64,000 nt of DNA from Escherichia coli (GTDB lineage Bacteria > Pseudomonadota > Gammaproteobacteria > Enterobacterales > Enterobacteriaceae): assembly GCF_041886205.1 (NCBI RefSeq), contig NZ_CP169029.1. One strand, written 5' to 3'. Numbering within the stretch: the stretch's first letter is position 1; each line of letters starts with the position of its first letter. The notes beneath the pieces are model-generated. The model did no database searches. It was not told the DNA's origin and was given only the letters and a program-made list of their open reading frames with translations. Below, piece by piece: positions 844 to 40,857 of this stretch. The position numbers and the translations under genes were made by a program.

Positions 844-1848
844 ATGCAAGATACAGACGTTTACGTATACATAGGCGATGTTCACCGCTCTGGTCATCAC
901 GACATCACCAAAGCGATTAAAGAAAGAAAAACTAACCATGGTTTACAAAAAAATGTTCTTTTTTGCGTCGCTACCTATGGCGGTGATCCCAGCGCAGGAT
1001 ATAGAATTGGCCGCGCTTTGCAACACAACTATGAACACATCACCGTTCTAGTTGTTGGCCCTTGCAAAAGTGCTGGAACCTTGATGGCTGTCGCCGCTCA
1101 TAAGCTCGTGATTGGTGATATGGGTGAGCTTGGTCCTCTAGACATCCAACTTAAGAAAAATGATGAGATCGGCGAATTGAGCTCGGGCCTTGTTATCGCA
1201 ACGGCGATTGATGAAATAAAAGAGTGCGCTATTTCGACCTTTAGATCATACGTACTTGATATAAAGTACAGAAACCAAATTAGCACGAAGATGTCTGCAG
1301 ATATTGCTGCTAAGCTTACTGAAGCAATCATATCGCCGATGGCCTCACAGATAGACCCCATCAAACTCGGGGAGCATCAACGAGCAATGAACATAGCGCT
1401 TTCCTATGGGGAGCGTTTGAATAGTCACTCGAAAAATCTTAAGGAAAGCTCCTTAGGCAAGTTGATCGCTGGATATCCAGCCCATGGTTTTGTGATAGAC
1501 CGTAAAGAGGCGAGGGAACTATTCAACCATGTTGAGAGTCCTACAGACTTTGCAGCCAACCTGTACGAAGTTCTTGGTGAGATGATTTCGTCAGGCGAAA
1601 TCTCTATCTTCGACAAACCGGTGATTAAAGATTTAACTCCTAAAAAACAATATGAAACAACTAACGCAGAGGAAGATTCCCATGACAACAGCAGAATTCA
1701 GGAAGGAGATGAAATCTCTGACCAAAATTCAGGAAGAGCAGAACCGCCAAGGGATGAACCTGTCCAGGGAAGCGATGGAAAACATGCGGAAATTGAAGAA
1801 GAGGCTGGAACCTTACCAGCAGAGCAACCAGATGAAGGCACTCAGTGA
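844..1848 (+). CDS. ClpP/S49-fold serine peptidase-like protein with long acidic C-terminal tail (cargo gene)
   Basis: 334-aa ORF; N-terminal region with GPCKSAGT motif resembling the ClpP nucleophile loop; C-terminus rich in D/E; AT-rich relative to flanks. Confidence 0.45.
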   Translation: MQDTDVYVYIGDVHRSGHHDITKAIKERKTNHGLQKNVLFCVATYGGDPSAGYRIGRALQHNYEHITVLVVGPCKSAGTLMAVAAHKLVIGDMGELGPLDIQLKKNDEIGELSSGLVIATAIDEIKECAISTFRSYVLDIKYRNQISTKMSADIAAKLTEAIISPMASQIDPIKLGEHQRAMNIALSYGERLNSHSKNLKESSLGKLIAGYPAHGFVIDRKEARELFNHVESPTDFAANLYEVLGEMISSGEISIFDKPVIKDLTPKKQYETTNAEEDSHDNSRIQEGDEISDQNSGRAEPPRDEPVQGSDGKHAEIEEEAGTLPAEQPDEGTQ

Positions 1849-2280: not shown

Positions 2281-2844
2281 TTATTTCGTTTGAATGCCAG
2301 TAACAGGAAATCGTTTATATAGGGTTGATAGCCCAACGTTATAGATACGTGCAACATAACGCCGTGATTTCCCTGCCGCTATGAGCGCTCCCATCTGTTG
2401 CCACTGCTCGTCGCTAAACTTCGGTCTACGCCCACCAATCCGGCCTTTGGATCTGGCAATAGCCAAACCAGCTAAAGTTCGCTCGCTATTCAAATCAGAT
2501 TCATACTGCGCAGCAGAAAGAATATTACGGAAATTATAGCGACCACTTGCTGTTTTCAGGTCTACACCATCTGTAATACTCCGAAAATTAACGCCTTTTT
2601 CGTGCAGATTTTGAAACATCAATAGCGCATGTAGCACATTTCTCCCTATCCGATCTAGCTTCCAGACAATCAACTCATCTCCACTTTTCATCACCGAAAT
2701 TAATTCCTTTAACACAGGGCGATTAGCTGTTCTGCCACTGGCATATTCTTCATAAATTCGCTCACAGCCAGCTGACTCAAGTGCAAGACGTTGCAACTCT
2801 GTATCCTGATGATTTGTTGATACACGAACATACCCGTAAATCAT
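2281..2844 (-). CDS. Serine-recombinase DNA invertase (Pin/Gin/Hin family)
   Basis: 187 aa; N-terminus MIYGYVRVSTNHQDTELQ with catalytic-Ser motif; C-terminal HTH; adjacent to inverted crossover sites. Confidence 0.9.
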   Translation of the reverse strand: MIYGYVRVSTNHQDTELQRLALESAGCERIYEEYASGRTANRPVLKELISVMKSGDELIVWKLDRIGRNVLHALLMFQNLHEKGVNFRSITDGVDLKTASGRYNFRNILSAAQYESDLNSERTLAGLAIARSKGRIGGRRPKFSDEQWQQMGALIAAGKSRRYVARIYNVGLSTLYKRFPVTGIQTK

Positions 2845-2903
2845 GAGTGCTTCTCCTGTTGTAAAAACAGGAGAAGAGGCGAAATATCACCTGATTCAGA
2901 AAA

Positions 2904-2929
2904 ATATTTGAAAGGTTGGTTTGGGAGAA
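2904..2929. other. Invertase crossover site A (gix/hix-like 12+2+12)
   Basis: atatttgaaagg-tt-ggtttgggagaa; inverted copy of the site at 4814-4839 (15 nt identical in reverse complement) with matching AA/TT core. Confidence 0.7.
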
Positions 2930-3415
2930 GGCTCAGCGTTACCCGTTGGTGTGCCTGTTCCGTGGCCTTCAGCCACACCACCAACAGGCTGGCTGAAATG
3001 CAACGGTGCACCTTTTTCTGCCGAAGAGTACCCAAAACTGGCAAAGGCTTACCCAAAGTTAAAATTACCGGATTTGCGCGGTGAGTTTATTCGCGGGTGG
3101 GATGATGGGCGAGGTGTTGATTCCGCGAGACTGCTGCTTTCAAGTCAGGCAGCATCTATCCTTGAACATAACCATGAAATGCATGGATGGACAGGGAACC
3201 CACTCATGGCTAGAGATGTTGGTGAATTAGGTACATCATCCGTATTTGCGGTGCAGTTGAGCATTGGCGATGGCGGGTTATTGTATTCGTGGAAGGATGG
3301 GAGTGGAACAACAAATGACAGTAAACGAATGGATAGAACAAATCATGTCAGTTCCGGCGCCGGTGATGGTAGCCCGCGAAACATTGCATTTAACTACATT
3401 GTGAGGGCTGCATAA
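2921..3415 (+). CDS. Alternative tail-fibre C-terminal variable segment (promoterless in current orientation; fused to constant part after inversion)
   Basis: ORF begins inside crossover site A; GLGEGSALPVGVPVPWPSATPPTGWLKCNGAPF tail-fibre C-terminal motifs. Confidence 0.65.
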   Translation: MGEGSALPVGVPVPWPSATPPTGWLKCNGAPFSAEEYPKLAKAYPKLKLPDLRGEFIRGWDDGRGVDSARLLLSSQAASILEHNHEMHGWTGNPLMARDVGELGTSSVFAVQLSIGDGGLLYSWKDGSGTTNDSKRMDRTNHVSSGAGDGSPRNIAFNYIVRAA

Positions 3416-4018
3416 ATGGAACAGGCTATTTTGGGAAAAGACGGTTACGCTTTAAATGATGGGGAAATCATCGTACATAACTATGATGGCGAAACGCGGG
3501 AATATATTTCTACATCAACTGAATATCTCGCTGTCGGAGTCGGTATCCCGGCATGTTCCTGTCTGGATGCACCAGGTACACATAAAGCTGGTTATGCAAT
3601 CTGTCGCTCTGTAGATTTAAATTCATGGGAATATGTGCCAGACCATCGCGGTGAAACGGTCTATAGCACCAAAACAGGAGAATCAAAAGAAATCACCGCT
3701 CCGGGTGATTACCCTGAAAATACAACCACTATCGCCCCATTAACGCCATACGATAAATGGGATGGTGAGAAATGGGTGACCGATACTGAGGCACAGCATA
3801 GCGCCGCAGTAGACGCGGCAGAAGCACAGCGCCAGTCACTGATTGATGCTGCAATGGCTTCCATTAGTCTGATTCAACTGAAATTGCAGGCCGGACGTAA
3901 ACTGACGCAGGCAGAAACAACCAGACTTAACGCTGTGCTGGATTACATTGACGCGGTGACGGCAACAGATACCAGCACCGCGCCGGATGTCATCTGGCCT
4001 GAACTGCCGGAGGCGTAG
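3416..4018 (+). CDS. Tail fibre assembly protein (alternative cassette, Tfa')
   Basis: 200 aa, starts 1 nt after the variable segment; C-terminal ...PDVIWPELPEA typical of Tfa family. Confidence 0.7.
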   Translation: MEQAILGKDGYALNDGEIIVHNYDGETREYISTSTEYLAVGVGIPACSCLDAPGTHKAGYAICRSVDLNSWEYVPDHRGETVYSTKTGESKEITAPGDYPENTTTIAPLTPYDKWDGEKWVTDTEAQHSAAVDAAEAQRQSLIDAAMASISLIQLKLQAGRKLTQAETTRLNAVLDYIDAVTATDTSTAPDVIWPELPEA

Positions 4019-4442
4019 GCCATTCAATATCTGGCGCACTGGAGGTATCAACCAGCTCCAGTGCATCCAGATAATCCAGCCACAAATTATATTGCGCCAG
4101 TTCCTCACCTTTCAGACGACCAATAGCGGCTTTACCGGGCCATTGCTTACTGTTCATGTATTCGTTGGCCTGGTTAATTAGTAGCTGTCTTTCTGATTCA
4201 GTAATTTCAATAAGCTCTTCATGCGTGGGTGGAGGAATATCTGCCCACGCAGGCAGCCCATCATCTCCGGCAATACGGATTTTTCCTTGTGGCGGTTCAG
4301 CCATAAACTCACTGATAATATTTTGATTTACTTCCTTAGCGTCTGATAAATCCCATCCCTCTGATTTATATTTATCAATCATATCCACAGGGAAAAAAGC
4401 ATTATGCCTTGCGCTATAAACATATTCGTTCATATAAATCAC
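3990..4442 (-). CDS. Tail fibre assembly protein (Tfa, active cassette)
   Basis: 150 aa; C-terminal ...PDIEWPTPP; 3' end overlaps convergent tfa' by 29 nt. Confidence 0.75.
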   Translation of the reverse strand: MIYMNEYVYSARHNAFFPVDMIDKYKSEGWDLSDAKEVNQNIISEFMAEPPQGKIRIAGDDGLPAWADIPPPTHEELIEITESERQLLINQANEYMNSKQWPGKAAIGRLKGEELAQYNLWLDYLDALELVDTSSAPDIEWPTPPAVQAR

Positions 4443-4453
4443 CCTGAATAAAA

Positions 4454-5116
4454 TTACTCACCAACAGCCCACCAACTGTAATTCATCGATACCGTGTCGC
4501 TGGTTGATGACGTTCTGTAAGCAGAATTAAAGCCGGTTAACGTTGGGCCTTCTGCAGTCATCACGAACCCTCGCCCAGCGCCTAAAGGCGCACCGCCATC
4601 ACCAGAATGAGTAAGCATGGCGCAGTCCGCTTTTTTGGGGAAAGGGATGCTGAATGTAATTCTCATTGTTTGCGTCGATAATGTCGGCGTAACCGCACCA
4701 CGACCATATTGCAGGATTTTCCCGTTGGGTAATTTCATCCATCCATCACCACTGGCAAAAGAGGCCATGTCCGGTATCTGATTTTCCCCTGTCCCCACAT
4801 CCCGTTTTGCCGCTTCTCCCAAACCAAGGTTTTCGAGAGCCGTTTTCACCGTGCCATCCGATTTGATATCGCCAAACGGATTCTTGCGGCTTAACAGCAG
4901 CGCACGAAGCGCGGTAAGCAGCTGGTCATGCCGCCCCTTCTCCAGGCTGGCACCGGATGCCTCCACCACGCTGCAAAGTTCCTCCTGCAACATGTCAAAG
5001 TAGTCATCATCCAGATCGGTGGCAGGCGTGCCGGTCTGGGGGTTACCACGGGTAAAACCGTTCTTACCCGCGCCGAACTTATCCTTCTGCGCGGTTTTCG
5101 TGTCTATACGATGCAT
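4454..5116 (-). CDS. Tail fibre protein (constant N-terminal part + current variable C-terminus)
   Basis: 220 aa; crossover site B lies in frame inside the gene (encodes [11 protein letters not shown]). Confidence 0.7.
4814..4839. other. Invertase crossover site B (gix/hix-like)
   Basis: ttctcccaaacc-aa-ggttttcgagag, close to recalled gix/hix consensus; inside tail fibre gene. Confidence 0.7.
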
Positions 5117-5119
5117 GAA

Positions 5120-5704
5120 TTACTCCGGATATTTAAAAATTACGTAGGTATGCGACGGGCAGAGTTTGTTAAGCACACACTCGACAACGGTGTCGCCCCA
5201 GATACGCAGTGCGGAATCACAGGGATCGCCACATGTCATCCAGGTGGTGTTGGTGGCGGCTGGCATGTTGACCTGCCAGTAATACCGCCATTCCGGCGCA
5301 TTCACAGCGTCAGTGCAGGCTGATGAGCAGGTGAACGTGCTTTTGTCGTATCGCGTGATGGTAGCGTCTGGTCTGCCCAGGGCAGCAAGCTGTGCAAGAT
5401 AAAAATCCTCGTTGATGCCGCCCGCCAGGTTAACCTTCGCATCCAGCCGTTGCTGACGCTGGCGAAGGGTCTGTGTCCCTGCGGGAATACATTCATCCGG
5501 CAGACCGCACAGACGCTCCCAGCGGTTTATCAGTTCAGTGGTGGTGCGCGGATCCAGCTCCCGCATCAGGGCATCCGCACGCTGATGAACGCGGGTTAAT
5601 GACGGTGCCGCACCGGCAATCGCCGGATCGCTGGCTGACCACGCCGGACCGGGGGGCAACAGTGCCGACAACAGACGGATGTAATCATCGTTTGTCACGT
5701 CCAT
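5120..5704 (-). CDS. Mu gp48-like tail protein (YmfQ/DUF2313-like)
   Basis: 194 aa; position between baseplate J and tail fibre. Confidence 0.55.
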
Positions 5705-6753
5705 GAAATCGTCCCCAGTACCGCCAGTTCATTTTTTGCAATGGAGATATTGTCTGCCGGTGCAAGCAACTGATGGCTGTATTCCCCGTTCGCACCGGAA
5801 ATCGCTTCACTGATACGCGACACCTTCAGTTCTCCCTGCGGATAACCATCACGCAGCAGGAACGAACGCAACTCGGCGGTGATGGCAGCCCGTATTTCTG
5901 GTGTATCCGGCGTCACACGGATATGAAAATCCACCGTATGCGCCACCGGCCTGAACACATACAAATCAGAGCCTGCCACCGGGGCCAGTGGCTCGATATG
6001 CAGCCTTGCCGCCGTTTCCGTTGATTCTTCCGGAATGGGATTAATCAGGTCGCTGCTGGCAATCATCACACCGACAGTCCCCGTTCCCATCCAGTGTCGG
6101 TATGTCCATGCGCGGGTAATGCCGGGAACTTCTTTAGCCCAGACGACATAGTCCCCGTCAGCCCCGCCCTGAGGCGTCCAGTAATACCGCTCAATGACGC
6201 GGGCGCGCCACATTTCCAGCTCTTCAGTATCAAATCCACCTGTCAGTGTATCTGCCACGCCGGAAGACGGCAGACCATTCACCGGCGTGACCAGGATTAA
6301 TGACGTACCGTCGTCAGCGTTACCGACCGCGCCTGCACTTGAGCAGGCGATCGGCACGCGCAGGACACCACCGGAGCTGGTTGCATCGGCAGTTGCCGTG
6401 TACTGCACCAGGTCATCGCGCTGAATAACACTCCCGGCGGTCACCTTCAGGCCATCGCTGACACCTTCCCAGCGCATATACCCGCTGGCAGCCGTGGCCC
6501 CCTTGCGCGGACACCGTTTCATCGCAGCATGTCGCGCCAGCCAGGACTCATCGCACAAGTCAGGCAGCATGTTCATTGCCAGATAATCGATGTACCCGTA
6601 AACCGTATGCAGCGCCGCCGCATACACCTTTGCCCGCACGTCTTCATCCATGCGCCGGAGCGTGTCGCTGACGTCCAGCCTGGCGAATAAATCGTTACGG
6701 AGCATACTGATATTTTCTGCCAGCGTCGGGCGCTGAAATTCACTGTCCGCCAT
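5695..6753 (-). CDS. Baseplate J-like protein (Mu gp47-like)
   Basis: 352 aa; position and size; overlapping start/stop with neighbours. Confidence 0.7.
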
Positions 6754-37039: not shown

Positions 37040-37075
37040 TTTTCCCGGGTGCAGCCGGTTTTGATGGAGAAAATT

Positions 37076-37348
37076 ATGAATACCTTGTTTTTACTGATGG
37101 CTGAATTCAATACCCCTAACATTGAACTCTCAGCAGTTAGCCAAAAGTACTTTGGCATGAGTCCAGCCACGGCAGAAGCAAAAGCAAACGCTTGTAAGTT
37201 GCCCGTTCCAACATATCGCATCGGCACATCACAAAAAGCAAAACGTTGCATCAATATTCAGGATCTTGCGGAATACATAGACAAAAGGCGAGAAGAAGGG
37301 CGTGCTGAGTGGGAAAGGGTCAGAACCCATAAACAAAGGCTCATTTAA
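37076..37348 (+). CDS. Small DNA-binding protein, excisionase/PrtN-like (uncertain)
   Basis: ~90 aa from MNTLFLL; FGMSPATAEAKANACKLPVPTYRIG resembles PrtN-type HTH as recalled; last gene before element terminus. Confidence 0.35.
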   Translation: MNTLFLLMAEFNTPNIELSAVSQKYFGMSPATAEAKANACKLPVPTYRIGTSQKAKRCINIQDLAEYIDKRREEGRAEWERVRTHKQRLI

Positions 37349-37356
37349 ATAGAATA

Positions 37357-37388
37357 TGAATAAACCCATCCAAAGATGGGTTTATTCA
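37357..37388. terminator. Bidirectional hairpin terminator between convergent genes
   Basis: tgaataaacccatc-caaa-gatgggtttattca, 14-bp perfect stem. Confidence 0.6.
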
Positions 37389-37852
37389 TAATGTTGAAGA
37401 GCAGCGAGTATCAGTTTTTTATGCCGTTTAACCATAGTTTTAGATATCTCAACTGCACATCGAACTTGTCTCATACAATGATCTGTAATGCGACCTTTTA
37501 GCACGTCACCATATTGGATGGCTATTTTCTCTTTAATAATTTCAAGATCGAAAGCAGCATGAGCCTCAATGCAATTAACAAATGAGTCCCATTTAAGAAA
37601 ATCATGGTCCTCTCTATTAATTTCGACCTGACAAGCCATAAGATCATTGTTTCTCTTAATAAATTCATTTATATCTGAATTTATTAGAAGAACTAAAAGA
37701 GGTTCACAGCAAACAACCACCATATATTTTACTTTAGGTGGGGTCGTAAAATCACAATGAAGATACAATACATCACCGGGTGATATACCTCTTTCACGAC
37801 TAAAATTAGCCTTAAAATCAGGAGGGAAACAATCACCCAGCATAAGTATCAA
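37382..37852 (-). CDS. Unknown 156-aa protein, downstream partner of Panacea-domain gene (candidate toxin/effector)
   Basis: 4-nt overlap with upstream gene; no recognisable family by eye; no predicted TM helix. Confidence 0.4.
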   Translation of the reverse strand: MILMLGDCFPPDFKANFSRERGISPGDVLYLHCDFTTPPKVKYMVVVCCEPLLVLLINSDINEFIKRNNDLMACQVEINREDHDFLKWDSFVNCIEAHAAFDLEIIKEKIAIQYGDVLKGRITDHCMRQVRCAVEISKTMVKRHKKLILAALQHYE

Positions 37853-38430
37853 TATCCGTTCTTCAGATAATCCAGTATTAATTTGCTATTTTTTAGCTGT
37901 GCAACTATCGATTCCAAAGACATCTCACCATTGTGATCTGCCTGTTCCCATGCCGCGTCATGGCTCATGGTTCTGATAGCTTCAAAGGACATGTTTCCAA
38001 GCATCGCGATAGACTTATCAATACACTCTAAATCTGAGTCACTAAAAAAGTCTTCATCAGCTTCACGGCTCGGCACAATCGTCATACCTGATACAGAAAA
38101 TGCTTTTCGCACAGAATCGACATCACAACCATTAGGAATGTAACGTCCATCTCCACGAGCAATTTTTATAATATCGTATGTGTTGCTTGCTACAGGCCCA
38201 TCCTTCATAGCGTTATAGTGATCGCCCGTTATGAGGCGTCCAAAACTTTCAAGGTGAAACCTGTCAGCATAATAAAGAATTTTTCCGACATGATAGATAT
38301 CTGGGATCGGTGCTTTAGAGGCGACGTACAGAATGGCCTCTAAAGCCTTTTCTGAATCAAACCTTACATTTAGCATCAATACACCCTTCATCCAAACAAC
38401 ATCGTCAAGCTCTGGCAAATGCAACCGCAT
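37849..38430 (-). CDS. Panacea/DUF4065 (SocA-like antitoxin) domain protein; true start may be internal Met
   Basis: Segment ALEAILYVASK...VGKILYYADRFHLESFGRLITGDHYNAMKDGPVASNTY fits the Panacea signature (LQKLLYYAQ...GPV) as recalled. Confidence 0.55.
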   Translation of the reverse strand: MRLHLPELDDVVWMKGVLMLNVRFDSEKALEAILYVASKAPIPDIYHVGKILYYADRFHLESFGRLITGDHYNAMKDGPVASNTYDIIKIARGDGRYIPNGCDVDSVRKAFSVSGMTIVPSREADEDFFSDSDLECIDKSIAMLGNMSFEAIRTMSHDAAWEQADHNGEMSLESIVAQLKNSKLILDYLKNGY

Positions 38431-38549
38431 CCGCCTTCTACAATCTTAAAGTCTTCACCTACGCTAGGTCAATTGAAGTGATGAGCAAATGATGCTTTCT
38501 AAGAAGAACAGGTTCCCAATAGGCTCCCACAAAGTGTATAACTACTTGT

Positions 38550-38675
38550 TTTTCAAAAACGGTACATCCTATCGAGCATTGGTGCAACGCTAAACCGACC
38601 ACTCCAGTGAACGTCAGTTTTTTCAGGCATTGCGCTGGTTTGGTTGATTTTTTGCATTTCAGAATTACCGTGCAT
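38550..38675 (-). pseudogene. dusA: Displaced 5' end of dusA (first ~35 codons) at the prophage attachment junction
   Basis: Minus-strand translation MHGNSEMQKINQTSAMPEKTDVHWSGRFSVAPMLD matches recalled DusA N-terminus, then diverges (RMYRF-stop). Confidence 0.6.
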
Positions 38676-38969
38676 TTTCAAATGTAGAGATTATTTTATC
38701 GATATATCATGGGGTTATGTTATTCAGCATCACTGTTCAGGAGGCTCAATAGCGGGGTACTATACCATAACAACAGGAAGCGCCTGTCTCATTGCAAAAG
38801 AAAATTGAGATCCTCTCAAGGCATGAAGCTCTCACGAAGTGATGGAAATAATCTTATTAGCCGTTAACTTTGTTAAGGCCAATGATAAACAATCCAGGTT
38901 CGACGATAAATAAAAAATCACACATTAAACTCCGGTGATATCTCCCCCTGCTAATAGCATTGATAGAGA

Positions 38970-39037: not shown

Positions 39038-40024
39038 TTATTTCTCCGATTTAACCCCGAACAAATCATAAATTAATTTAGAAGTGTCTGTAAGTATTTT
39101 AATCTCTTCCTTTGAGGTTGGGTCAAACGACTTCGCGAAGCTAATTAATTGTGGTGCAGCATCTCGCATTTTGCTTAAAATATCAGGATCGAGCGTTCCT
39201 TCATTCACCAGATGTGACATCTTATCCAGATAGCCATCAAAATTCATTTCTCCCCCATCAGCCAGACGCTTCATCTCTCCCAGGTACTTCTTCATATCAC
39301 GTTGAGATAATTTTTCAAACTGAGCTTTCAGGTAGCTCTCATTATTTTCATTAATATACACTGTTTCTGATAAATCTGCGTAGGCACTAGAATATGAAAG
39401 TGAAATTAACAGCGAAGCAAATAATTTTAAGCTGTTGTCATCATGTTCCTGGCAGGCATTAACAAACGTTAAAAAACCAGAACCTATTGCTTGAAAATGT
39501 ATATTCGCTAAAGGTTCATTATCCTTAGATTCCTCATAAAATAGCTGAACCGTGGAGGGAAGGTCATTCTTAGTTTCTACATCAAAAGTACATTGTTCAA
39601 TGGGCATTGCATCTTTATTATCCCCAAGATTACATATACTATTAATCGCGAAATGAAAAATAGCCCGGTCAACAACTGATGCAATAAAGTCACGATCGTT
39701 TAAATCCTCATCAGTGCAATCGTCAATATACTTATTGACCCACATTTTGAGATCATTTATTTGCTTAAGTAACATCACATTTTTTTTACGTGCATGCCAT
39801 AAATTATGCGTGATTCGTTGAATAAACAAATCTATTTTTGCAATAATTATATCCCGATGACGCAGCGCTGCATAATCAATAGATTTACCATATATATTAT
39901 TTAATTTACCTTTGATTGAACCTCTATTATCTAATTTATCTTTGATTGCATCTTCATTATCGAATTGATTTGAATTGAGTGTTTTATTAAAGTATCTAGT
40001 TGCACCGGGTATTATCTTCAACAT
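39038..40024 (-). CDS. AT-rich hypothetical protein on host side of att junction (occupies yjbL/yjbM position next to zur)
   Basis: 328-aa ORF, Asn/Lys/Asp-rich, low GC. Confidence 0.4.
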
Positions 40025-40341
40025 GATTCATCTACCTTTTTTGTCGTACCGTGTCCTCCTTATAATTCTTTTGCCATCTGGTCACTATCAAAAATCGCTC
40101 ATAATTTCTGAACTACAGGTATGCGTTTAAACCCAGTTAAATAAATAGCGAGTTAACTTGAAGCAATTTATTTAAAAATGAATTATTAATTATTATCGTG
40201 TTGATAATGGTACGACAAGGCAACACAACACCTTACCTACAAAACAGAAAATCAACATTACGGCAACAATAAGGGTTCTCGGTGTTTTTCCTGGAACATG
40301 GTAAAGTAAGGACATTCTTAACCCCCACTTTGAGGTGCCCG

Positions 40342-40857
40342 ATGGAAAAGACCACAACGCAGGAGTTATTAGCGCAGGCTGAAAAAATCTGCGCGCAGCG
40401 TAATGTGCGCCTGACCCCACAGCGCCTGGAAGTGTTGCGCCTGATGAGTCTGCAGGATGGCGCTATCAGCGCTTATGATCTGCTTGATTTACTGCGCGAA
40501 GCTGAACCGCAAGCCAAGCCGCCAACGGTTTATCGCGCGCTGGATTTTCTGCTTGAGCAAGGTTTTGTGCATAAGGTGGAATCCACCAACAGTTATGTGC
40601 TCTGTCATCTGTTCGACCAGCCCACCCATACGTCAGCCATGTTTATTTGCGATCGCTGCGGCGCGGTGAAAGAAGAGTGTGCTGAAGGCGTGGAAGACAT
40701 CATGCATACGTTGGCGGCAAAAATGGGTTTTGCCCTGCGGCATAATGTGATTGAAGCACATGGGCTCTGTGCGGCATGCGTGGAAGTGGAAGCGTGTCGT
40801 CATCCTGAACAGTGCCAGCATGATCACTCTGTGCAGGTGAAAAAGAAACCGCGTTAA
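40342..40857 (+). CDS. zur: Zinc uptake regulator Zur
   Basis: 171 aa from MEKTTTQELL...; Fur-family; ORF-track start 40282 is an upstream extension. Confidence 0.9.
   Translation: MEKTTTQELLAQAEKICAQRNVRLTPQRLEVLRLMSLQDGAISAYDLLDLLREAEPQAKPPTVYRALDFLLEQGFVHKVESTNSYVLCHLFDQPTHTSAMFICDRCGAVKEECAEGVEDIMHTLAAKMGFALRHNVIEAHGLCAACVEVEACRHPEQCQHDHSVQVKKKPR

What the first reader, a model, noticed from the sequence alone, without database searches (positions are those of the whole stretch)
37382..38430. Panacea(SocA-like)-domain two-gene module at the prophage terminus: candidate toxin-antitoxin / anti-phage cargo
Two minus-strand genes overlap by 4 nt (37849-37852) and sit between the last phage gene and the att junction, a classic cargo/defence hotspot. 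The upstream product carries a Panacea/DUF4065-like signature (VGKILYYADRFHLESFGRLITGDHYNAMKDGPV); by established knowledge Panacea domains act as antitoxins that pair with very diverse toxins. The 156-aa partner (MILMLGDCFPPDFKANFSRERGISPGDVLYLHCDF...) matches no family I recognise, so it may be an undescribed toxin/effector. A strong convergent hairpin (37357-37388) insulates the pair from the phage operon.
Basis: partly seen in the sequence, partly recalled or inferred. Interest (0 to 1): 0.8.

Follow-up and report, generated by a model that had tools for sequence, protein, structure and literature searches.

The report
Prophage PanAT pair with MazF-fold toxin
This is a real two-gene toxin-antitoxin-like module at the end of an E. 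coli prophage, but its "orphan" partner is a divergent MazF/PemK-fold protein from a toxin cluster (PanT T5) catalogued in 2022, so it is an untested member of a known kind rather than a new effector.

The parts
37849..38376 (-). panA: stand-alone Panacea (DUF4065) antitoxin-like gene, 175 aa plus TGA stop, with a ~30-aa helical C-terminal extension beyond the Pfam domain
   Evidence: Pfam PF13274 E 9.1e-20, residues 50-161 of the 193-aa ORF; phrog_1281 E 1.6e-20; GPV motif invariant across pairs; conserved start MLNVRFDSEKA with an SD-like GAAGGG 7 nt upstream
38377..38430 (-).
   Evidence: Homologous PanA proteins are 170-179 aa and all start at the downstream Met
37382..37843 (-). panT: 153-aa MazF/PemK-fold protein of PanT cluster T5 (putative toxin), plus TAA stop
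37844..37848 (-). 5-nt spacer between the panA stop (TGA, 37849-37851) and the panT ATG; the alternative TTG at 37852 would give the 4-nt overlap
   Evidence: Sequence; spacing -1 to +11 nt in Enterobacterales-type homologous loci; PGAP model
37355..37390 (-). Intrinsic-terminator hairpin closing the panAT operon, convergent with the PrtN-family gene
   Evidence: 16-bp stem, 4-nt loop, dG -23 kcal/mol, z -7.4
38443..38472 (-). Weak sigma-70-like site (TTGACC-18-TAAGAT) upstream of panA; speculative
   Evidence: Matches 9 of 12 positions; the number of such sites in the region is not above shuffled expectation
38553..38681 (-). Native dusA 5' remnant (42-codon ORF; PGAP pseudogene 38571-38675) with the att crossover at its 3' end. 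It reads toward panA, and no terminator is predicted in between
   Evidence: RefSeq annotation of the identical locus; alignment with the phage-supplied dusA 5' end; terminator scan
37049..37348 (+). Last phage gene (pyocin activator PrtN family), convergent with panT; context only

Best explanation
A PanAT-type toxin-antitoxin module carried as an accessory gene pair (a moron) at the att-proximal end of a dusA-integrating lambdoid prophage. panA encodes a stand-alone Panacea-domain protein. panT, translationally coupled 5 nt downstream, encodes a 153-aa protein with a MazF/PemK beta-barrel core plus extra helices (PanT cluster T5). Inferred mechanism: PanT is a growth-arresting toxin, most likely a sequence-specific endoribonuclease. 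Invariant Lys39 and Asn55-Ser56 would occupy the positions of MazF Arg29 and Thr52, and Ser87 is also invariant. PanA holds PanT inactive by direct binding, in type II fashion. Loss or titration of PanA, for example on prophage loss or infection by another phage, would free the toxin. That would give prophage addiction and/or abortive-infection defence. Shown here: domain identity, fold, strict synteny, purifying selection and mobility between phage accessory slots. Inferred: toxicity, RNase chemistry, direct neutralisation and the biological role.
Against: There are no functional data for this protein or for any validated T5 pair; in the one tested T5 case the PanA was itself toxic. Eight of 25 tested PanTs were not toxic in E. 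coli. There is no sequence-level link to MazF in my hands: Pfam PemK matched 0 of 60 members, the HMM search against PDB found nothing, and hhalign against four MazF/Kid sequences gave E 0.029 and probability 1.7%. The canonical Arg/Thr catalytic pair is replaced by Lys and Asn-Ser, and that equivalence rests on strand register rather than a superposition I could inspect. No PADLOC defence family matched. I found no autoregulatory operator or convincing promoter. PanA evolves more slowly than PanT, which is unusual for antitoxins. No PAE was available for the fused model.
Confidence: 0.6

Rival explanations
1. The MazF-fold partner acts like CcdB, poisoning DNA gyrase and blocking replication, rather than cleaving RNA. 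PanA would still neutralise it by binding.
Confidence: 0.1
2. A type VI SocAB-like system: PanA does not inhibit by binding alone but acts as an adaptor that delivers PanT to ClpXP for continuous degradation.
For: SocA is the founding Panacea protein. A weak local match to the NCBIfam SocA_antitoxin model exists (E 0.0028). Kurata et al. note that the two modes may not be mutually exclusive.
Against: The SocA equivalog score is 17.4 bits against a cut-off of 190. The partner is T5, not SocB (T10). The tested PanAs neutralised without ClpXP or Lon and formed stable complexes. The fused model suggests a docked complex.
Confidence: 0.07
3. The pair is not a toxin-antitoxin system. It would be a conserved two-protein phage accessory unit, for example a regulator or RNA-binding factor with a Panacea partner, that causes no growth arrest, and the MazF fold would be catalytically inert.
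For: About a third of predicted PanTs were non-toxic in E. coli. The canonical catalytic residues are substituted. No T5 pair has been validated. The pair sits in accessory slots of phages, as many non-TA morons do.
Against: One T5 member is toxic. Polar residues at the MazF active-site positions are strictly invariant across 1,246 clusters. Co-occurrence with the antitoxin domain is obligate, 42 of 42. Decay is toxin-first in two Photorhabdus loci.
Confidence: 0.2

Closest known systems
PanAT systems, toxin cluster T5 (Kurata et al. 2022, PNAS; PMC8832971)
   Different: This E. coli dusA-prophage pair was not found in the stored part of their dataset, which was cut when stored. The E. coli pairs they tested belong to T1 (not toxic) and T3 (membrane toxin). 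No T5 pair has been validated, and none has been tested for phage defence.
MazEF and Kis-Kid/PemIK type II TA systems
   Different: The antitoxin is a globular Panacea domain, not a MazE/Kis AbrB-type or swapped-hairpin protein with a disordered tail. The toxin is ~40 aa longer, with N-terminal, internal and C-terminal helices. There is no Pfam PemK_toxin match. The catalytic pair is Lys and Asn-Ser instead of Arg and Thr.
SocAB (Caulobacter crescentus), type VI TA
   Same: The antitoxin-side protein carries the same Panacea domain.
   Different: The toxin family differs (SocB is T10 and targets the beta clamp). SocA works as a ClpXP adaptor. The NCBIfam SocA model scores far below its cut-off (17 against 190 bits).
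ToxIN / CptIN / AbiQ type III TA toxins
   Different: Those toxins are neutralised by a tandem-repeat RNA. No tandem repeat or Rfam family is present here, and a protein partner is strictly conserved.
CcdAB
   Different: It scores lower than every MazF/Kid hit. The antitoxin type and the target (gyrase) differ.

Membership tests
PanAT (Panacea antitoxin plus associated toxin) | One partner carries the Panacea/DUF4065 domain (Pfam PF13274) | tested here: met
   E 9.1e-20, 72.1 bits, model positions 3-112 of 113
PanAT (Panacea antitoxin plus associated toxin) | Conserved GPV signature motif of Panacea | tested here: met
   The sequence MKDGPVAS is present; G60, P61 and V62 are invariant in 16 diverged PanA sequences; the motif is described in PMC8832971
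PanAT (Panacea antitoxin plus associated toxin) | [quoted passage not shown] | tested here: met
   The gap is 5 nt. 42 of 42 loci from many genera keep the pair, while the flanking genes differ
PanAT (Panacea antitoxin plus associated toxin) | Reciprocity: relatives of the putative toxin are themselves next to PanA | tested here: met
   Every relative with upstream DNA has a PanA neighbour. Kurata scores the Photorhabdus T5 entries 5|5
PanAT (Panacea antitoxin plus associated toxin) | The toxin arrests growth and the cognate PanA neutralises it | not testable with these tools
   This needs expression assays. The only T5 precedent is C. bovis, where the toxin was toxic and the PanA was also toxic
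PanAT (Panacea antitoxin plus associated toxin) | PanA and PanT form a physical complex | tested here: inconclusive
   The fused-chain AF2 model has pTM 0.79 with the linker below pLDDT 50. No PAE and no negative control were available
PanT cluster T5 | Homology to proteins listed as T5 in Dataset S1 | tested here: met
   WP_054475897.1 (P0073) shares a 90% cluster with P0033, which is 53% identical to the window PanT, and it is listed as T5. Other T5-listed Photorhabdus species were recovered as 54-56% identical loci. AFDB full-length matches come from T5-list organisms
MazF/PemK (CcdB/MazF superfamily) toxins | SH3-like barrel fold of MazF/Kid | tested here: met
MazF/PemK (CcdB/MazF superfamily) toxins | Match to the family sequence profile (Pfam PF02452 PemK_toxin) | tested here: not met
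   There is no Pfam hit for the protein or for any of 60 relatives; hhalign against MazF/Kid was not significant; the HMM search against PDB was empty. HHpred significance is reported only by Kurata, for another T5 member
MazF/PemK (CcdB/MazF superfamily) toxins | Catalytic Arg (MazF R29) and Thr/Ser (T52) pair | tested here: inconclusive
   By strand register and the hhalign register the equivalent positions are K39 (60/60) and N55/S56 (59/60 and 55/60). The chemistry is plausible but non-canonical, and I could not inspect a superposition
MazF/PemK (CcdB/MazF superfamily) toxins | Ribosome-independent endoribonuclease activity | not testable with these tools
   Requires biochemistry
SocAB type VI TA | SocA equivalog (NCBIfam NF047745) with a SocB partner | tested here: not met
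   17.4 bits against a cut-off of 190; the partner is T5 rather than T10
Type III ToxIN-like TA | Tandem-repeat antitoxin RNA upstream of the toxin gene | tested here: not met
   No tandem repeats and no Rfam match
Catalogued anti-phage defence systems (PADLOC-DB v2) | Match to a defence-system protein model | tested here: not met
   PanA has no hit; PanT has only a weak hit to PDC-M02B (E 0.017)

The most novel reading that the evidence does not exclude
T5-type PanAT is a prophage-borne abortive-infection system. Its extended MazF-fold toxin would use a non-canonical Lys/Asn-Ser/Ser active site, and the stand-alone Panacea domain would act as the sensor of an incoming-phage cue. In this E. 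coli lysogen the pair would be switched on by integration itself, because the orphaned host dusA promoter and 5' remnant read straight into panAT with no terminator in between.
Probability: 0.2. Interest if true: 0.55.

Novelty: new member of a known kind. Interest (0 to 1): 0.3.

Why it matters
If confirmed, this would be the first validated TA pair of the T5 cluster, one of the larger PanA-associated toxin clusters. T5 is an extended MazF-like family of more than 1,200 sequence clusters that Pfam, NCBIfam and PADLOC do not recognise. It would also give an E. coli-native, genetically tractable model for two questions: how a globular Panacea domain neutralises a MazF-fold toxin, and whether it senses a phage cue as Ernits et al. 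2023 proposed. The pair recurs in phage accessory and defence slots, so it is a reasonable candidate for phage-challenge screens. Practically, annotation pipelines leave the toxin as 'hypothetical' and over-extend the PanA start, and the corrected gene models matter for cloning.

Tried and rejected
1. Sequence-only routes to a family for the partner all failed: Pfam, NCBIfam, PADLOC (only E 0.017 to PDC-M02B), PHROGs (E 0.009 to an unknown-function family), an HMM of the family against PDB sequences, and hhalign against a hand-typed four-sequence MazF/Kid alignment (E 0.029, probability 1.7%). Only the fold comparison and the literature resolved it.
2. I checked whether the E. coli pairs tested by Kurata et al. 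were this module. They are not: MOD1 is T1 and STEC O31 is T3.
3. The NetFlax supplement held none of the accessions I searched; the file was cut when stored.
4. The search for related loci with the broad alignment A2 failed for lack of a conserved stretch; I reran it with A1.
5. Looking up distant representatives gave no organism names.
6. I looked for an autoregulatory operator or promoter. There are no inverted or direct repeats upstream of panA, and promoter-like sites are not above shuffled expectation.
7. I considered a type III RNA antitoxin because of the ToxN/CptN/AbiQ fold hits, and rejected it: there are no tandem repeats and no Rfam hits.
8. I considered a plasmid origin and rejected it: there is no plasmid hit.
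9. The literature search found no phage-defence test of a Panacea/MazF-like pair.
10. dS was saturated for most pairwise comparisons, so only a few dN/dS values are usable.

Full report
OBSERVATION. The window is E. coli chromosome. zur (40282-40857) and yjbJ lie to the right. The native 5' end of dusA survives as a 42-codon remnant at 38553-38681(-), which RefSeq annotates as an incomplete tRNA-dihydrouridine synthase in an identical locus of strain ACN002. I aligned this remnant with the intact dusA 5' end on the integrase side of the ACN002 prophage. That places the att crossover at about 38553-38575, so the upstream gene begins only ~180 nt inside the prophage. The last phage gene, a PrtN-family gene at 37049-37348(+), is convergent with the pair. 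The hairpin between them is real: a 16-bp perfect stem with a 4-nt loop at 37355-37390, dG -23 kcal/mol, z -7.4, with 0 of 200 shuffles as stable. It contains the partner's TAA stop and scores as a minus-strand intrinsic terminator.

GENE MODELS. The 4-nt overlap comes from extending each ORF to its first possible start. Sixteen diverged homologues of the upstream protein all begin at the equivalent of MLNVRFDSEKA. In the window this is ATG 38376, preceded by GAAGGG 7 nt upstream, giving 175 aa. The homologues are 170-179 aa. The closest homologues of the partner begin MLGD, which is ATG 37843 and gives 153 aa; PGAP chose the same start. This leaves a 5-nt spacer after the upstream TGA. In the Enterobacterales-type loci the spacing is -1 to +11 nt, and it is 42 nt in Idiomarina. 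The two genes are therefore tightly coupled, probably translationally, but they most likely do not overlap.

THE UPSTREAM PROTEIN. Pfam gives SocA_Panacea (PF13274) at E 9.1e-20 over nearly the whole model. PHROGs gives phrog_1281 at E 1.6e-20. The GPV motif, which Kurata et al. describe as the Panacea signature critical for neutralisation, is present (MKDGPVAS) and invariant among the homologues. The protein is not a SocA orthologue: the NCBIfam SocA_antitoxin model scores 17.4 bits against a cut-off of 190. It has no N-terminal DNA-binding or accessory domain, only a helical C-terminal extension of about 30 aa.

THE PARTNER. Pfam gave nothing even at E 10, NCBIfam gave nothing, and PADLOC and PHROGs gave only marginal hits. 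But the family is already described. A word-indexed search found 41 clusters, all labelled 'hypothetical' and 152-157 aa, mostly from Enterobacterales. One of them, Photorhabdus heterorhabditis WP_054475897.1, is in the same 90% cluster as P0033, which is 53% identical to the window protein. Dataset S1 of Kurata et al. 2022 (PMC8832971) lists it as predicted toxin cluster T5, in antitoxin-toxin order, with a 3-nt gap and reciprocity 5|5. For a T5 representative that dataset reports HHpred probabilities of 99.5% for MazF/EndoA/PemK and 98.5% for CcdB. It also flags the Chryseobacterium bovis T5 member as toxic in E. coli. Table S1 adds that the C. bovis PanA was also toxic, so that pair was not validated.

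IS IT A MODULE? Yes. Every locus that retains DNA upstream of a partner homologue has a Panacea gene immediately upstream on the same strand. That is 38 of 38 among the genome and viral-contig loci. The nine loci without one all start at the toxin gene itself. It is also 4 of 4 among distant members at 25-39% identity. The flanks differ from locus to locus. Both genes are under purifying selection: dN/dS is 0.029 for panA and 0.127 for panT in the least saturated comparison. Two Photorhabdus loci carry a broken panT beside an intact panA. A single-chain PanA-(G4S)6-PanT model built on a paired alignment reaches pTM 0.79 although the linker is disordered. That fits a docked complex, but I had no PAE and no control, so it is only supportive.

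MECHANISM. The best-supported reading is a type II PanAT pair. Kurata et al. showed that PanA and PanT co-purify and that neutralisation does not need ClpXP or Lon. Ernits et al. 2023 (PMC10440598) showed that stand-alone Panacea domains neutralise directly, and proposed that Panacea also acts as a sensor. By analogy with MazF/Kid, the toxin is most likely an endoribonuclease. In the model, the strand order and the only register hhalign found put invariant Lys39 at the position of MazF Arg29 and Asn55-Ser56 at Thr52-Thr53. Ser87 is also invariant. The counts in 60 sequences are K39 60/60, S87 60/60, N55 59/60 and S56 55/60 plus 4 Thr. This step is inference: I could not inspect a superposition, and the residues are non-canonical.

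BIOLOGICAL ROLE. The module is AT-rich (35-41% GC, against 48-50% for the adjacent phage genes). It appears in four different phage accessory positions. The first is the att-distal-from-integrase end of dusA prophages in E. coli. The second is next to the integrase at dusA in Morganella. The third is the gap between gpA and portal of a P2-like prophage in Rahnella, beside an AbiJ-like gene. The fourth is between antiterminator Q and the methylase/lysis genes of the isolated Serratia phage vB_SspS_OS31. Distant members sit beside restriction-modification genes. This pattern fits a defence or addiction moron, but it is only association. PADLOC does not recognise the pair, and I found no paper testing such a pair against phages. 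In complete E. coli genomes the module is rare: 45 of 5,426, all chromosomal and at least 98.5% identical. The same count, 45 genomes, carries it together with the dusA junction, and there are no plasmid copies.

VERDICT. The Panacea and TA-module parts of the interpretation hold. The claim of an undescribed toxin does not hold, because the partner belongs to PanT cluster T5 and has the MazF/PemK fold. It is a new, untested E. coli member of a known but unvalidated PanAT subtype. I score interest at about 0.3. The remaining value lies in T5 never having been validated, in its non-canonical active-site residues, and in possible expression from the orphaned dusA promoter.

Noticed in passing
window 38431-38720 (minus strand): The native dusA promoter region and the first ~35 codons are left pointing into the prophage. 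No terminator is predicted between this remnant and panA, so integration itself may place panAT under the host dusA promoter. This is inference only.
   Followed up: partly
window 39038-40024 (minus strand): A 328-aa DUF2713-family gene sits in very AT-rich DNA (29-37% GC) between the dusA remnant and zur. This islet replaces the yjbL/yjbM genes that I recall at this position in K-12.
   Followed up: no
window 2281-4442: A Hin/Pin-like serine invertase gene (2281-2844, minus strand) lies next to oppositely oriented tail-fibre C-terminal and assembly ORFs, which looks like an invertible host-range switch. Strain ACN002 has an identical early arm and panAT but a lambda-like gpJ tail, so these prophages are mosaics that share the att-proximal arm.
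   Followed up: partly
window 844-1848 (plus strand): A 334-aa SDH-family Clp-fold serine proteinase gene lies beyond the tail-fibre region near the left end of the window. It may be another accessory gene. The integrase end of the prophage lies outside the window.
   Followed up: partly
L015 (Photorhabdus australis) 3989-4461 and L016 (P. tasmaniensis) 948-1301: panT is split or truncated while the upstream panA ORF is intact. This toxin-first decay is consistent with a deleterious toxin.
   Followed up: partly
L004 (Rahnella aceris CP002505) 4471-6688: panAT is followed by a 305-aa AbiJ_NTD4-domain gene, between the P2-like gpA and portal genes. This looks like a small stacked defence islet in the P2 accessory hotspot.
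   Followed up: no
L050 (Serratia phage vB_SspS_OS31, MT843276) 4444-5474: This is the only deposited cultured phage carrying the pair (p23/p24, both annotated as hypothetical). The pair sits between antiterminator Q and a DNA methylase/holin, which is the slot that stx genes occupy in Stx phages.
   Followed up: partly
L052 3582-6459 and L053 3461-6450: Distant T5-type pairs from MAGs lie directly beside restriction-modification genes: N6_N4 methylases plus ResIII in one, and type I Methylase_S plus N6_Mtase in the other.
   Followed up: no
panA versus panT across loci: PanA is consistently more conserved than PanT (for example 85% against 75% and 86% against 66% amino-acid identity in the same locus pairs). 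This is the reverse of the usual pattern, in which the antitoxin evolves faster.
   Followed up: no
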